Source: Podarcis tiliguerta
Taxonomy: Eukaryota
Length of the DNA stretch: 64,000 nt
Assembly (NCBI GenBank): GCA_965153285.1
Contig: OZ229115.1
Strand: one strand, 5' to 3'
In this document: piece after piece, positions 31,001 to 54,987 of the stretch
Layout: every line of letters starts with the position of its first letter
Position numbering within the stretch: position 1 is the first letter of the stretch
Made by a program: the position numbers

Positions 31001-34000
31001 TGGAAGCCTTTGTGCAGGCCTTCCGCTGAAGAAGTTTGTTATGTGGTTCCCACCCACTGTATCTAAACATGTCTATCCTTAGTTTTTAAAAGATTTTGGA
31101 GTGTATTTTGTTAGAGCTAAACTGAAATGGATGTGTGTGTTGAGAAGAGAGGTGAACATTTTTCTTCCCCTGTGAAATGCATACCCATTTCAGAATTCTT
31201 TGGGAGGGGACTCCACACAAGGGTGAAAATGTTTGCAGAATGGTTCCCTACTCAGTACACATTCCACTCAACGGCAATGTGTTATGCCCTTACACTGAAC
31301 TGACTTTGCAACTTCATCACTTAGCTAAATGTGATTGTTCTTTCTGCCTACATTATCACAAAGAAATGGAAATAATTATGTTCAATGAAATGATGTTATG
31401 ATGCTGCACAGCCAAATCTGATGGCGTTGTCCTGGGGCTAATTCAGAGTGAGGGCATAAAGCACTGCCTTTACTCTGAACTGACCTTGTGATATTGCCAC
31501 ATAGACAAACCTGATTGCATACATGGCGTCATCACCCTGGCCATGTAATCCTACAAGAAAAACATGGTCGGAAAAATAATGGAAATGAAAATGCTGCTGA
31601 TCAGACCTGCAAACAAGTTTTGAAAAGTTGTGAAGATAGTGACTAGCAGGACTTCCCAGAGAATATTTTCACAGCAAAGATTTGGTGCAGGACTATACGA
31701 ATGTCTGCACTCTGCATTACATGCACATAGATGGGATAAGGTGTTAGTTCCCTATACGTCCTACAACAGAAAAGAAAATCAGTCTGACATCAGCACTGAA
31801 GCTGTAGCACATCTAGCACATCAAGCTTTGAAGGGACAAGTATCTTGTTATTCCTGGAGGCTCTCTAAGAAGTTACTTTGCTTCCAATTTAGTACCGAAG
31901 TGCTGAACCTCCAGCAGATAACAGTTGGTGCAAAGCTTCCAGAAAGTATCATACTGCTAAGGGACAGTCACTCACTTCCCTCACCATTCTCTGTCACAAT
32001 TGTAGAATAGGTCTGCTCACAAATACCACTAATTTTGGTCACATACATTCCATATGTACAAACTGAAATAAAAGCACTCTAACCTAACCCAGCTGAACAC
32101 AATACATGAAGCTAGTGAAACACAAGGAAACTCTTCACATCAAAAGGAATGTACACTCCAGACTTTCTCCATAAAGGCTCAGGGCCAATTTCATGTGCCC
32201 CAAATCCAGTCCTTAGGACCACAATGAATCAAATGCATCGCACAGATAGCCTTGTAGCAAAGACCAGTTTTCAGATTCAGCATATTATTAGCCACACAAT
32301 ACAGTCAACCTGATCTCATTCCATAATGTTTCGTAAGCCAGTACATTCAATGAATTCCTACCTGGTGCTGCCTGGATCTCTGACACTCCACCAGCGATGA
32401 TAAGAGCCTCAATAATCTTCACATGATGCTCTGGATTCAGTTCCATGCTAGGAAAACAAGGACAAAGAACTTAGTACAATGTTAGTCACGGCTTCTGCTT
32501 GCTCAGTTTGCCTGCGATAGAAGAGGGAATCAGACACTGAGACCAGTCAGAGAAATCCAAACCCATAATCCGCCATGCTGCAAGCAGTTTGGATGAGGTG
32601 GAGGTGTTTACCTATCCAGCCCTGCCAGTGATGAGTACCCCAATGCACCCACCCAGGCCACTGCCAGTAACAGTGAGCAGAACCAAAAGAACCAGGGTGC
32701 TTAGTGGAAAAGGTGAGCAGGCACTGGGATCACGGGATGGAAACAGGATCATGTGACTACAATGGACTTGATCCAGACCTCTTCACTGAGGCAGGTTGGC
32801 AGATGACCAAGTGAGGAGGCTACTTTGCCTGTCTTCACCTTCTACCTTAGCTGGCATGAGCAGTGGGGCTGTGGATTTGGTGGTGGCTATGTTGCTCCAT
32901 TAAGCCCCACTGCTGAAGGGCAGAGGTTTGGAATGATCCCTTGGACATGCCAATCCAAGAATCTGTGCAACCTGGGTCCTTGCATTGCAAGAGCTTCATG
33001 GGAAACAAAGATTTATGGTCTACGAGTGCTGCTCCCAATTTCAGTGCCTGGTTTAAAAGTTACTTGAATAGCTGCCGCAGTTTTAGGCTTGCCTTCATTA
33101 CATTATGATTCCTTATTGGTTTACATTTCTTTCTTTGTCTTTGTTTATATGTATGTATTTATTAACTTCACTGATATGCCATCTTTCTGCCAAATATTCA
33201 AGGCAGCAGTTATATGTATGATGGTCCACTGAAAGCCATTGTCTAAAGCCCTTTCTCTTGGATTCTTGGAAACTTCTCCAGCTGAAATATAATTGGCTTC
33301 AACCAGTTGGGGCATTTCTGAAATTCAGGTGCAAATGGAACTCTTCTTGCTAGTGGGCAGGAACCAAATCTTATTTTTAACTTGAGTTCCGGATTAGTAA
33401 CGTGAGGGATGAGGAGGAGCAAATGAAGATGCTTCTGGTTAAATAGTCCAGCAGTTTCACCTTGATGGGGATGGTTTAAAAAGCACGTCACTAAAGGCCT
33501 CTCCAAGCATCCTGGGTGTGAAGTGATTCTTGCTGCCATTCTGGCACAGTTTACAGAAATGCCTGGTCAGGTGTTGCAGAAGGAGTCTGTGCCATTGAGG
33601 GAGACGGGGAGATTCTAGGATCAATTTTATCTGTTGACCACACTCCTCTGGGCTCTGAGTTTCTGAAGAAAAAAGACAGGAGAAAAGAAGACAGCTTTTA
33701 TATACAGGTAAAAATTCAAGACAGGTAACTTCTGTCTTCACTCACAATCTCAACTCTCCATTCCTGTCTCCATATTGCACACAGGTTTTGCTTCCACAGC
33801 TCCCTGCTGGCATTTTCCTGGAGAAACCTCTAGAATGCAGAGTCCATCTTGGCCGAACAGCATCTGGCTAGTTTATTTCAGGTTTAGAAGGCACCTTGCT
33901 CATTGTTGGCATCTGCCATGGGAAAGTTCCAGTTTTATTTGCACACATACATATTGGGATAAGTGCTATCAGACAGTGGGGCTGGATCGTGAGTTTGCTA

Positions 34001-52000: not shown

Positions 52001-54987
52001 AAACTCCTGACTGTCTCCAGCACAACAACATTGATGTTCAGCTGGCCGTTGGCTGTCACCACCACCACCGCTACCACTTATCAACATGCTCATGCACTAA
52101 GTTGGAGCACCCACCATGTATACAGGCAAGTTGAAAAACACAACACTGGTCTGAAGCCAACAACTGCACAGCCCCACACCCAGCACAGAAGCTTCAGGCA
52201 GGGGAGTTACATTTAATAAATTGATTTTGCCTTTATTGGTTCTTTGTAGCACAGGAATTCTATTAAACTCGAATGGAACTGGAACGAGAGACATGCCTAG
52301 CCTCCACCTCGTTACTTTACTTTTGCCATCTCATTTCTTTGAAAGGGCAGGGATGATGCAATAAATGGAAACTGAATCAGGGCAGGAAAGTGTGGTGCAA
52401 ATCTAAACAATAGGTAAATCAGCCGTCAAAGCTTGCCAAGACCACCTCCTTTGTTCTTAGAACACACGCAGAAAGTTATCTAATCCACACCTGAAGGGAG
52501 CTATTTGGCACATTTTAAAAGAAATAATTGTCAATAGCGTCCAGTGCATTGGGACATGCTGCTTTTCCTGGTGGCGAAGGAAAATAAAGGGAATCTATGC
52601 ACTGCCTCCTACAATGGAAAGCTCAGCACTTTCTTCTGCAGAGGGGAAATAAATACCTTGTTGGGAGTTTGACCAGAGAAATGGCCAGAGGGGAAGTGGT
52701 GGAACAGCCCTCCTTCTCCTGCCATTATTCTGCTTAAACCTGCAACTTCCCAAGTTTGTTTTCCCCCTGCTTCTTTTTCTTTTACAAAGGTGGAAGAAGG
52801 ATACATGTAATAGCATGTCCCAACTAGTTTGGACCTTAAGGTAAGCTCCTCCATATACTAACCCACAACCACATCTCATGCATTAACCCTTGCTGTTCAG
52901 AATATATTTCCCTATGAGTAGACGAGAGGTGGACCTACCCAGGCAGCCTGATAAACAGAACAATAAAACATTCTAGGAACAAACCTGGGAAGCTGCCTTA
53001 TACCAAGCCAGATCATCTAGCTCAGTATGGTCTGCATTGAGGGGCAGCGGCTCTCCAGGCAGGGCTCTCTTTCAACCCTACCTAGAGATGCTTTGGACGT
53101 GCAGCTTGCAATGCAGATGCTCTATCACTGAGCTATAATTGTTTAAGAAGTGAGCCAAGCTACGTGCTGGAAAGAAGGGCAATCCTCATTCCGCCCCCCC
53201 CCCAAGAAAAACACAGCATTCCTACTACTGAATCTGTTAAAGCTCCTCCCCATCTCATTTCATTAGCAGCATGAACTCTGTACAGGACAGGCCTAGATCT
53301 CATTTTGATTTATCTGCCAAAGCCACATTATCAGTTGGCTTGGGATGGGGTGACTTTAAGACAAGTCAGCATTAGAGTTGCACATTTTAATTGGCAGATC
53401 CATCAACTCAAGCTTTAGTTGAATGATCAGTGGGAGCTAACTTTAACTAGTGGTTCTGAAAACTAAAGCTCTTTGGTTTATTTTTTATGTTACCTTTGGT
53501 TTTGGTGTTTTATTGCAATTATGGGTTTCAAAACATTAAGACTGTATTTCCTTCTTAACAATGAGTGGTGATTTTTGTTTATTAGATTGTAAATTACCTT
53601 ATGCTGTATTACATCAAGTAGATTGCAATTTATCTTACATGACATTAAGTAAAATATACCTATACTGTGCTTTATGCCATTTTATTTAAATGCAACTGAT
53701 TAATTAATAAGCTAATCCATTAAAAGGCAGGTGATCAATAAATTAAAACACCTTCATCAAACCACATCCTTACTGCAGCCAGAGACTAAAAACCACTAGT
53801 GAGGAATGTTGCTGCCTCAATCACAACAGCCCTCACTGATCCATGAATACAAGAGCACAACAGGCTTCCACACATTAATTCAAATTATCACAGCAATATT
53901 TAAAGAGAGAGACGTATAAAGTTATAACACTACTACCCAACTGCAGCCCCTTTGAAAATACAATAGGATTGAGTCCGATGCATCTAGTCAGGCAGCTTTC
54001 CCTTGATTTCCTGAAACACAACAGAACTCTGGAATATGAAGCTTTTAAAATGGTAGAAAGGAAATAGCAGGCATTTACCTTGAACTATGTAAAGTAATTC
54101 ACTGTAGGTTGCTGGGTGAATCACGGGGCAAGGGAGCTCCTGAAGGTAGTGCCTGAGCATTTCACCTAACGTCTGCCCATCAAACTGGTCCAGATCAACA
54201 GATCCCAAGTCTGGAAGAAGAAAAGCAGGGGAGGTTATCCTACAGAGTGCCCTTGCAACTGGGGGTAGGGAGGAAATTGAGCTGTTTGTACAGAAGGAAC
54301 CTAGCATTGGATTGCAAATCCTGATGTCGGAGAACAACGTGAACCGTATACCAAGAATGCCTCTTTCTGCATTCATTTTGAATTTACTCATCAAGAGCTT
54401 CTGTACTGGGCTGCTTCTTGGATACTAAGAGATCTGAAAAGCACTGATGGATGTGAAGGACTTCTAATATCCTGCATTTTCTGGAGAAAAATGCTGAAAC
54501 AAGCATCCTATTCAATATACCACTAATTCATATAAAGGGACACAATATATCTCAATTTAAAAGGTGGGGTGTGTGTGTCCCATTTTGAACACAGTACTTA
54601 TTTTGACTTACCAGAATGGAAGGAAACAAAAGTCTCCCCAACTAGTATAAAACTAGAAAATTATCACTTTCCAGTCTACCATAAGTCACAAAAGTAGAGG
54701 ATTATTATGTGTAACAAAACATAATTCACCAACAACTGGAAAAAGTGTTATTTTACAGCTGCACATATACTTTTTCTTGGTATACACATACACAGAGATG
54801 CAAATGTCATATAAATCACTGAATCTGCTCACTTTCTAAAAAAGCTTGACTTTAAACTCTATATTTGAGTTCTTGCAAACACAGAGTACAATCCATCTTG
54901 GATTGTCAGGTTCTGGTCCTCAGACTTGGGATTGTAGCCTTAAAGACCAAGGATGGTCCCAGCAGGACCGAGGCTGTAGTCACCTGA

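What the first reader, a model, noticed from the sequence alone, without database searches (positions are those of the whole stretch)
32362..54210. Intact BH/RhoGAP exons of a third p85-like PI3K regulatory subunit (a putative 'p85gamma', long form of PIK3R3)
Seen: three exons with canonical splice sites join in frame (132+202+86 nt, phases 1/1, 1/2, 2/1) with no stops, across introns of about 20.4 kb and 1.0 kb. Established: mammalian PIK3R1 and PIK3R2 encode p85 proteins with SH3 and BH domains, whereas PIK3R3 (p55gamma) lacks them. Inference: the peptide aligns almost gap-free to p85alpha but at roughly one-third identity by eye, too low for an amniote orthologue. It is therefore most likely a full-length p85-type product of the PIK3R3 locus retained in reptiles and lost in mammals, or else a fourth paralogue. 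It may already exist as an automated gene model, but I know of no functional description.
Basis: partly seen in the sequence, partly recalled or inferred. Interest (0 to 1): 0.75.

Follow-up and report, generated by a model that had tools for sequence, protein, structure and literature searches.

The report
Long PIK3R3 (p85-type) BH-domain exons
These three lizard exons encode most of the BH domain of a long, p85-like form of the PI3-kinase adaptor gene PIK3R3, which databases already predict in many non-mammalian vertebrates but which I found in no paper searched.

Summary
Three minus-strand exons (54210-54079, 33662-33461, 32447-32362; 132, 202 and 86 nt) have AG/GT borders, compatible phases and no stops, with introns of 20,416 and 1,013 nt. 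Each peptide was searched separately; I never joined them. They are 43/43, 65/66 and 27/28 identical to NCBI's automated model 'PIK3R3 gamma isoform X1' of the lizard Zootoca vivipara (730 aa).

Such ~730-aa models fill the 120 best hits listed: squamates, turtles, crocodilians, birds, a caecilian, coelacanth, sharks, rays and ray-finned fish, and no mammal. In a tree of the SH3-BH region these N-termini form one clade (support 99/98), outside the alpha-like and beta-like groups. In a falcon, the long and short (p55gamma) isoforms share 429/429 residues.

- The long form is not reptile-specific.
- It is not a fourth paralogue.
- It is already an automated annotation.

Nine literature searches found no description. 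The one phylogenetic study I read says p55gamma homologues lack the RhoGAP domain.

Untested here: transcripts, flanking exons, synteny and loss in mammals. Interest is modest.

The parts
54079..54210 (-). Exon a (132 nt, phase 1 in, phase 1 out). It encodes LGSVDL...LLYIVQ, which corresponds to residues about 165-209 of the Zootoca long PIK3R3 model, in the middle of the BH/RhoGAP-like domain.
   Evidence: AG/GT borders. Translation. Pfam RhoGAP E=9e-4. p85alpha BH structure 1pbw E=2e-4. 43/43 identical to P0004.
33663..54078 (-). Intron of 20,416 nt between exons a and b.
   Evidence: Coordinates. tblastn with P0004 finds nothing else here. No Rfam family or tRNA. The ORFs from this stretch that I scanned have no Pfam hit.
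33461..33662 (-). Exon b (202 nt, phase 1 in, phase 2 out). It encodes TQSPEEC...KPSPS, residues about 209-276 of the model. It is the C-terminal half of the BH core and includes the conserved Arg of 'TPRML' (R259 in Zootoca numbering).
   Evidence: Pfam RhoGAP E=2e-7, 31.3 bits, above the 24.5 cut-off. p85alpha BH structure 6mrp E=4e-11. 65/66 identical to P0004. R259 is present in 23 of 24 gamma rows.
32448..33460 (-). Intron of 1,013 nt between exons b and c.
32362..32447 (-). Exon c (86 nt, phase 2 in, phase 1 out). It encodes MELNPEHH...IQAAP, residues about 276-305 of the model, the last helix of the BH domain. Its final G would start the Ala codon of the 'ALPPKP' exon, which lies outside the window.
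   Evidence: 27/28 identical to P0004. No Pfam hit on its own.
1..32361 (-). Part of the intron downstream of exon c, more than 32.3 kb. It holds neither the p55gamma first exon (MYNTVW...) nor any SH2 exon.
   Evidence: tblastn with P0004 and with four short p55gamma forms gave only chance-level matches, E>=0.2.
54211..64000 (-). Part of the intron upstream of exon a. The SH3 exon and the first BH exons (residues 1 to about 165 of the model) are not in it.
   Evidence: tblastn with P0004. The apparent extension upstream of 54210 in that hit is unspliced read-through with no real similarity.

Best explanation
The three exons are coding exons of the long, p85-type isoform of the lizard's PIK3R3 gene ('p85gamma'). 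The domain order is SH3, proline-rich motif, BH/RhoGAP-like domain, proline-rich motif, nSH2, iSH2, cSH2. The window holds the exons for roughly the last two-thirds of the BH domain. The SH3 and early BH exons lie beyond 64000. The alternative p55gamma first exon and the shared SH2/iSH2 exons lie before position 1.

Shown here:
- The exons are intact and nearly identical to the Zootoca model.
- The SH3-BH part of such models is an old third lineage, beside the alpha and beta lineages, found from sharks to birds.
- In species with both isoforms annotated, the long and short forms share one C-terminal part.

Inferred from the known biology of p85alpha and p85beta, and recalled rather than tested:
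- The locus works like PIK3R1. An upstream promoter gives the p85-type protein and an internal promoter gives the p55 form.
- The shared iSH2 binds and restrains a p110 catalytic subunit.
- The SH2 domains release it on phosphotyrosine (pYxxM) sites.
- The extra SH3 and BH parts add p85-style functions such as dimerisation, binding of small GTPases, and PTEN or proline-rich partners.

The BH domain probably acts more as a binding module than as a GTPase activator. The arginine that aligns with the RhoGAP arginine finger is not kept in all gamma sequences.
For: - Exon structure.
- Domain identity: Pfam RhoGAP and p85alpha BH structures.
- Identity to the long PIK3R3 model: the exon b peptide's best hit is the 730-aa 'PIK3R3 gamma isoform X1 [Zootoca vivipara]', carrying RhoGAP, SH2 and iSH2 Pfam domains. 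The exon peptides are 43/43, 65/66 and 27/28 identical to it.
- Breadth: a search with residues 1-305 of that model gave 357 hits with E<=1e-3, of which 120 were listed. By name, 65 are gamma or '3b (gamma)', 50 are 'P85A kinase' or alpha, and 5 are uninformative (my count). All 55 of the 55 not named gamma are 64-98% identical to a named gamma N-terminus, against 37-48% to the alpha-like and beta-like representatives.
- Tree: IQ-TREE, 52 rows, 305 columns, 5 invertebrate rows as outgroup. The gamma N-termini are one clade (32 rows, 99/98), beta-like 100/99 (10 rows), alpha-like 94/88 (5 rows), alpha plus beta together 97/90. The branching inside gamma follows the species tree.
- Same locus as p55gamma: Falco X1 against X2 is 429/429 identical, turtle long against short is 426/429, and the Zootoca long form against gecko and snake p55gamma is 405/427 and 402/427.
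- Fold: an AlphaFold model of the natural 313-aa SH3-BH protein of Rhineura (mean pLDDT 77.4) matches p85alpha BH structures (E=8e-11, TM 0.74) and p85 SH3 structures (TM 0.90).
- Atlas: a cluster of 445 members, about 733 aa, named 'gamma-like isoform X1', has RhoGAP in 100% of members.
- Indirect synteny: in catfish and zebrafish, pik3r3b lies beside mast2 (PMC4372039, passages read).
Against: - No transcript was seen. All the long forms are automated models.
- In three squamates the same exons are modelled as separate SH3-BH-only proteins of about 313-327 aa, named 'alpha-like' (Rhineura, Varanus, Hemicordylus). The Atlas also has a 51-member cluster of such 317-aa proteins. The link to the SH2 exons may therefore be absent or optional in some species.
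- The window lacks the SH3, early BH, p55gamma and SH2 exons, so the integrity of the whole gene in this genome is unknown.
- The window holds no neighbouring gene, so synteny could not be tested.
- The alpha-like and beta-like labels in the tree rest on unnamed cluster representatives. Only two were anchored to solved structures.
- No mammalian p55gamma sequence was in hand, and the PDB holds no PIK3R3 chain. Orthology to mammalian PIK3R3 therefore rests on source names, on the MYNTVW N-terminus (recalled as typical of p55gamma) and on the fish synteny paper.
- The N-terminal part evolves much faster than the C-terminal part: 57.8% against 90.4% identity between Zootoca and whale shark. The arginine aligned with the RhoGAP finger is R in only 19 of 24 gamma rows.
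Confidence: 0.88

Rival explanations
1. The exons belong to a stand-alone gene, or an exclusively truncated transcript, that makes only an SH3-BH protein of about 310-330 aa and is never joined to the PIK3R3 SH2 exons in this species.
For: - NCBI has separate 'alpha-like' models of 269-327 aa in Rhineura, Varanus and Hemicordylus that end just after '...IQAAP'.
- The Atlas has a cluster of 51 members, 317 aa, with SH3 and RhoGAP only.
- Reading through the exon c donor gives a 24-codon tail and then a stop. Its first residues, GRNSLNVL, resemble the Varanus tail GRKSLKAL.
- The intron after exon c is longer than 32 kb.
Against: - Joined models of about 730 aa exist in the closest relative, Zootoca, and in 4 other squamates listed (Sceloporus, Anolis, Euleptes, Pogona), as well as across jawed vertebrates.
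- Exon c ends in phase 1 with G, which fits the Ala codon of 'A-LPPKP' seen in all the long models.
- A truncated isoform and a full-length isoform can coexist, so the short models do not exclude the long one.
Confidence: 0.07
2. The exons are a divergent orthologue of PIK3R1 (p85alpha) or PIK3R2 (p85beta), not of PIK3R3.
For: - The best solved-structure matches are p85alpha BH domains.
- Several sources name related proteins 'alpha-like' or 'P85A kinase'.
Against: - The PDB has no gamma BH domain, so alpha is simply the nearest structure available.
- Identity to the alpha-like and beta-like representatives is 35-61% per exon, against 96-100% to the Zootoca gamma model.
- The gamma N-termini form a separate clade with support 99/98.
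- All 55 of 55 entries with alpha or uninformative names are gamma-type by identity.
Confidence: 0.01
3. The exons are a decaying relic: once-coding upstream exons of PIK3R3 that are no longer used, as presumably happened in the mammalian lineage.
For: - The SH3-BH part evolves several times faster than the C-terminal part.
- Residues in catalytic-type positions vary.
- There are no expression data.
Against: - The frames are open and all six splice signals are canonical.
- Only 2 amino-acid differences in 137 residues separate the window from the Zootoca model.
- The gamma clade keeps its reading frame from sharks to birds, with species-tree-like branching and 13 invariant columns between residues 120 and 305.
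Confidence: 0.03

Closest known systems
PIK3R3 'isoform X1' automated gene models (for example Zootoca vivipara, 730 aa; teleost pik3r3b)
   Same: The exon peptides are 43/43, 65/66 and 27/28 identical. The models carry RhoGAP, SH2 and iSH2 Pfam domains. They fall in the same clade.
   Different: Nothing of substance. The window differs at two residues, so it comes from a close relative or another individual. Only 3 of the model's exons lie in the window.
p85alpha (PIK3R1), the textbook SH3-BH-nSH2-iSH2-cSH2 adaptor with alternative p55alpha and p50alpha promoters
   Same: The domain order is the same and the BH fold is the same. Both flanking proline-rich motifs are visible in the Zootoca model sequence. 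The locus logic is also alike, with long and short isoforms sharing a C-terminal part.
   Different: It is a separate paralogue lineage. BH identity is about 38-48%. The function of the gamma SH3 and BH parts is untested.
p55gamma (the mammalian PIK3R3 product, 461 aa)
   Same: It comes from the same gene. The C-terminal 427-429 residues of the long models match short p55gamma forms at 94-100% identity.
   Different: p55gamma starts at its own first exon (MYNTVW...) and lacks SH3 and BH. That exon is not in the window.
p85beta (PIK3R2)
   Same: The architecture is the same.
   Different: The beta-like rows form their own clade (100/99), sister to the alpha-like rows. The human p85beta BH structure 2xs6 matches the gamma N-terminus only weakly: 32 bits, against 113-119 bits for alpha.

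Membership tests
p85-type class IA PI3K regulatory subunit | BH (BCR-homology / RhoGAP-like) domain | tested here: met
   Pfam RhoGAP hits on exons a and b. p85alpha BH structures are the best PDB matches. A proxy model folds as a BH domain, TM 0.74 to 6mrp.
p85-type class IA PI3K regulatory subunit | N-terminal SH3 domain encoded by the same gene | tested here: inconclusive
   It is not in the window. It is present in the orthologous models, and the Rhineura proxy has an SH3 fold with TM 0.90. Sequence beyond 64000 is needed.
p85-type class IA PI3K regulatory subunit | nSH2-iSH2-cSH2 module joined to the BH exons in one transcript | not testable with these tools
   The SH2 exons are not in the window and no transcript data were available. 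The domains are joined in automated models but kept separate in three squamate models.
p85-type class IA PI3K regulatory subunit | Binds and regulates a p110 catalytic subunit | not tested
   Inferred from the iSH2 domain of the models. No complex prediction or assay was run.
PIK3R3 (gamma) orthology group | Groups with gamma sequences and not with alpha or beta | tested here: met
   The gamma N-terminal clade has support 99/98. Zootoca stands in for the window.
PIK3R3 (gamma) orthology group | Shares its C-terminal exons with the p55gamma isoform | tested here: met
   Falco X1 against X2 is 429/429, turtle is 426/429, and Zootoca against gecko and snake is 405/427 and 402/427. This was shown in other species, not in the window's own genome.
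PIK3R3 (gamma) orthology group | Synteny with MAST2, TSPAN1 and POMGNT1 | not testable with these tools
   The window holds no other gene. tblastn, Rfam and tRNA scans found nothing, and 10 of the 26 ORFs of 115 aa or more were scanned without a Pfam hit. Indirect evidence: fish pik3r3b lies beside mast2 (PMC4372039).
PIK3R1 orthologue | Nests within the alpha clade | tested here: not met
   The alpha-like label was anchored for one representative.
PIK3R2 orthologue | Nests within the beta clade | tested here: not met
   The beta-like label was anchored for one representative.
Catalytically active RhoGAP | Conserved arginine finger (the 'LYR' position, aligned with p85alpha R151; the residue number is recalled) | tested here: inconclusive
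   The position lies outside the window. Among 24 gamma rows it is R in 19, Q in 2 (Sceloporus, Anolis), K in 2 (Latimeria, Amia) and A in 1 (Polypterus). It is R in the Zootoca model.

The most novel reading that the evidence does not exclude
A real, expressed 'p85gamma' exists. It would be a third SH3-BH-bearing class IA PI3K adaptor that dates back to the ancestor of jawed vertebrates, is kept from sharks to birds and lizards, and was lost or silenced on the mammalian line, which left only p55gamma. It has gone unnoticed in the PI3K literature because that literature is built on mammals. In squamates, where one 2015 study found no p85beta orthologue, it might serve as the second p85-type subunit.
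Probability: 0.55. Interest if true: 0.55.

Novelty: already known. Interest (0 to 1): 0.35.

Why it matters
Textbooks and the reviews I checked list five class IA regulatory subunits: p85alpha, p55alpha, p50alpha, p85beta and p55gamma. They treat PIK3R3 as lacking SH3 and BH domains. Public gene models show that this is probably a mammalian peculiarity.

If the long isoform is made, chicken, zebrafish and lizard cells have three p85-type adaptors. Gene knock-outs or morpholinos aimed at 'pik3r3' in fish or birds may then hit a protein with functions, such as dimerisation and PTEN or GTPase binding, that the mammalian gene cannot have. It would also show how an alternative internal promoter can survive the loss of the ancestral upstream exons.

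For the scan itself the result is ordinary. This is a correctly read piece of an annotated gene.

Tried and rejected
- I first looked for the middle exon near 52.6-53.3 kb and found nothing. It lies at 33.5-33.7 kb.
- tblastn for the p55gamma first exon and for SH2 exons in the window found nothing.
The alpha-like and beta-like labels therefore rest on similarity to solved structures for two representatives and on clustering.
- The 50%-identity representative search returned mostly fragments and no full-length named PIK3R1.
- Rfam, tRNA and tandem-repeat scans gave 0 families, 0 tRNAs and two microsatellites.
- 10 of the 26 ORFs of 115 aa or more were scanned against Pfam without a hit. The other 16 were not scanned.
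- A bacterial-type promoter and terminator scan near exon c is irrelevant to a vertebrate gene and I ignore it.
- The PDB holds no PIK3R3 chain that could anchor gamma.
- Nine literature searches (and the P3R3URF lead) found no description of a long PIK3R3 isoform.
- The one 'p85gamma' paper I opened uses the term loosely for p55gamma (PMC4621884, passage read). The other 34 of 35 papers with the term were seen as listings or not at all.
- The mouse P3r3urf knock-out paper says nothing about SH3 or BH relics (PMC12961275, passages read).
- No complex prediction was run.
- The joined three-exon peptide was never made or searched. The database model P0004 served as its proxy.

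
Full report
**Observation**

The gene lies on the minus strand. The three exons are 54210..54079 (132 nt), 33662..33461 (202 nt) and 32447..32362 (86 nt). Each has a pyrimidine-rich tract ending in AG before it and GT after it. The introns are 20,416 and 1,013 nt. The phases fit (2+129+1, 2+198+2, 1+84+1), and the three in-frame peptides of 43, 66 and 28 residues have no stop. 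My first look for the middle exon near 53 kb was in the wrong place. The window holds no N.

The joined peptide was never made. A database protein stands in for it below.

**What the exons encode**

- Pfam RhoGAP matches exon b at E=2e-7 (above the curated cut-off) and exon a at E=9e-4 (below it). Exon c alone has no hit.
- The best solved structures for exons a and b are BH domains of p85alpha (6mrp, 1pbw; E=4e-11 and 2e-4). The human p85beta BH domain appears only weakly.

**Whose exons they are**

A search of the large protein collection with the exon b peptide gave 7 hits with E<=1e-3 among 15 candidates.

- Similar models of 725-727 aa exist in Anolis and Sceloporus.
- Shorter SH3-BH-only models of 269-327 aa, named 'alpha-like', exist in Rhineura, Varanus and Hemicordylus.

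The three exon peptides are 43/43, 65/66 and 27/28 identical to the Zootoca model. The window therefore comes from a lacertid or a very close relative.

tblastn of that model against the window finds only these three exons, residues about 165-305. Four short p55gamma proteins find nothing. The SH3 and early BH exons therefore lie beyond 64000. The p55gamma first exon and the SH2 exons lie more than 32.3 kb downstream of exon c, before position 1.

**How widespread the long form is**

A search with residues 1-305 of the Zootoca model gave 357 proteins with E<=1e-3, of which the best 120 were listed.

- None of the 120 is from a mammal.
- They come from squamates, turtles, crocodilians, many birds, a caecilian, the coelacanth, sharks and rays, sturgeon and paddlefish, gar, and teleosts (pik3r3b).
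- By my count of the names, 65 are called gamma or '3b (gamma)', 45 are bird entries called 'P85A kinase, partial', 5 are called alpha or alpha-like, and 5 are uninformative.
- All 55 of the 55 not called gamma are 64-98% identical in their first 300 residues to a named gamma protein. They are only 37-48% identical to the alpha-like or beta-like representatives. The alpha names are therefore labelling artefacts.
- The ESM Atlas likewise holds a 445-member cluster of about 733 aa named 'gamma-like isoform X1' with RhoGAP in all members. It also holds a 51-member cluster of 317-aa SH3-RhoGAP-only proteins.

**Same locus as p55gamma**

From the 'A-LPPKP' junction onward, long and short forms match closely:

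| Comparison | Identical residues |
|---|---|
| Falco biarmicus X1 (731 aa) vs X2 (463 aa) | 429/429 |
| Turtle long vs short form | 426/429 |
| Zootoca long form vs gecko p55gamma | 405/427 |
| Zootoca long form vs snake p55gamma | 402/427 |

The short forms begin MYNTVW.... I recall this as the p55gamma-specific N-terminus.

**Paralogue identity**

To obtain alpha and beta sequences I searched the 50%-identity representative library with the natural 313-aa SH3-BH protein of Rhineura. It gave 440 hits with E<=1e-3, and 150 were listed.

- I therefore anchored two representatives to solved structures. P0190 is alpha-type: its BH part scores 140 bits to 1pbw against 67 to the beta structure 2xs6. 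P0180 is beta-type by its iSH2 and SH3 parts: 332 bits to 3mtt against 270 to the alpha structure 2v1y.

The tree of the SH3-BH region used 52 rows and 305 columns, with IQ-TREE, model LG+C20 and 5 invertebrate rows as outgroup. The rows were 24 named gamma rows, 8 unnamed gamma-like rows, 10 beta-like rows and 5 alpha-like rows. I chose them from the hits, and the other hits were left out.

| Group | Rows | Support |
|---|---|---|
| All gamma-type rows, one clade | 32 | 99/98 |
| Beta-like | 10 | 100/99 |
| Alpha-like | 5 | 94/88 |
| Alpha-like plus beta-like together | 15 | 97/90 |

The order inside gamma follows the species tree: sharks, then ray-finned fish, then coelacanth, caecilian, squamates, turtles, and crocodilian plus birds. 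The SH3-BH part of PIK3R3 is therefore an old third lineage. It is neither a recent copy of PIK3R1 or PIK3R2 nor a fourth gene.

The alpha-plus-beta grouping agrees with Philippon et al. 2015 (PMC4617754). I read passages of that paper and its section 11.

**Fold and residues**

An AlphaFold model of the Rhineura protein, built with a 32-row alignment, has mean pLDDT 77.4 and a disordered linker at residues 85-118. Foldseek matches its helical part to p85alpha BH structures (E=8e-11, TM 0.74, 38-41% identity). It matches its N-terminal part to p85 SH3 structures (TM 0.90).

Among 24 gamma rows, the Arg inside exon b ('TPRML', R259 in Zootoca numbering) is kept in 23. The Arg aligned with the RhoGAP finger lies outside the window. 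It is R in 19 rows, Q in Sceloporus and Anolis, K in Latimeria and Amia, and A in Polypterus. The equivalence of these positions to p85alpha R274 and R151 is recalled, not checked. This pattern favours a binding role for the BH domain over a catalytic one.

The SH3-BH part also evolves much faster than the SH2 part. Between Zootoca and whale shark the figures are 57.8% and 90.4% identity.

**Mechanism**

I infer a PIK3R1-like locus. An upstream promoter makes the p85-type protein. An internal promoter makes p55gamma, and its first exon sits in the long intron after exon c. The shared iSH2/SH2 part binds p110 and phosphotyrosine sites, and the SH3, proline-rich and BH parts add p85-style contacts. 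Only the exon anatomy, the homology and the isoform sharing are shown here. The rest is inferred from p85alpha biology.

**Caveats**

- No transcripts were available. The three separate SH3-BH-only squamate models show that the joined form is not always what the annotation pipeline supports.
- Reading through the exon c donor gives a 24-codon tail (GRNSLNVL...) that resembles the tail of the Varanus model. This hints at a truncated isoform.
- Synteny cannot be tested in this window, which holds no other gene. Indirectly, pik3r3b lies beside mast2 in catfish and zebrafish (PMC4372039, passages read).
- Loss in mammals rests on the absence of mammals among the 120 listed hits and on recalled knowledge.

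**Literature**

Nine searches found no description of a long PIK3R3 isoform.

- 'p85gamma' occurs in 35 papers. The one I opened uses it loosely for p55gamma (PMC4621884).
- Philippon et al. state that p55gamma homologues lack the rho-gap domain.
- A 2024 review lists only the five mammalian subunits (PMC10839044, passages read).
- The library covers open-access papers and preprints only.

**Verdict**

The feature is an already annotated gene, so its novelty for the scan is low. The gap between the databases and the literature gives it modest interest.

Noticed in passing
window 32288-32362 (-): If the exon c donor is not used, the frame runs on for 24 codons (GRNSLNVLAYETLWNEIRLTVLCG) to a double stop. 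The first 8 residues share 5 with the tail of the Varanus SH3-BH-only model (GRKSLKAL). This hints at a conserved truncated or intron-retaining isoform.
   Followed up: partly
window 42001-46000: A GC-richer stretch (0.475-0.488, against 0.39-0.47 elsewhere) lies inside the 20-kb intron. It holds a 156-aa open frame (42827-43297, +) with no Pfam hit. It could be a CpG-rich regulatory element or a repeat.
   Followed up: partly
P0010 (Sceloporus) and P0008 (Anolis), residue aligned with Zootoca R147; outside the window: The arginine aligned with the RhoGAP arginine finger is Q in the two iguanian lizards, K in coelacanth and bowfin, and A in bichir. It is R in 19 of 24 gamma rows.
   Followed up: partly
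PMC4617754, results on regulatory subunits: Philippon et al. 2015 report finding no p85beta orthologue in Lepidosauria in the data of that time. If that holds, the long PIK3R3 form might be the second p85-type subunit of squamates.
   Followed up: no
P0004 versus other gamma models: The SH3-BH part diverges several times faster than the SH2/iSH2 part. Between Zootoca and Gavialis the figures are 59.9% and 94.6% identity.
   Followed up: partly
one search hit list: 45 bird entries named 'P85A kinase, partial' and 5 named alpha or alpha-like are really gamma-type long PIK3R3 by identity. This is systematic mislabelling in public records.
   Followed up: yes
P0011 and P0128 (Acipenser sinensis, flagged 'UNVERIFIED_CONTAM'): These two entries have odd bit scores for their identity: 538 bits at 54%, and 601 bits at 68% in a 1,066-aa protein. 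That suggests duplicated or fused gamma-type segments in those models.
   Followed up: no
window 4667-4715 and 12635-12690: Two microsatellites, (AG)24 and (ATT)18, lie in the downstream intron.
   Followed up: no
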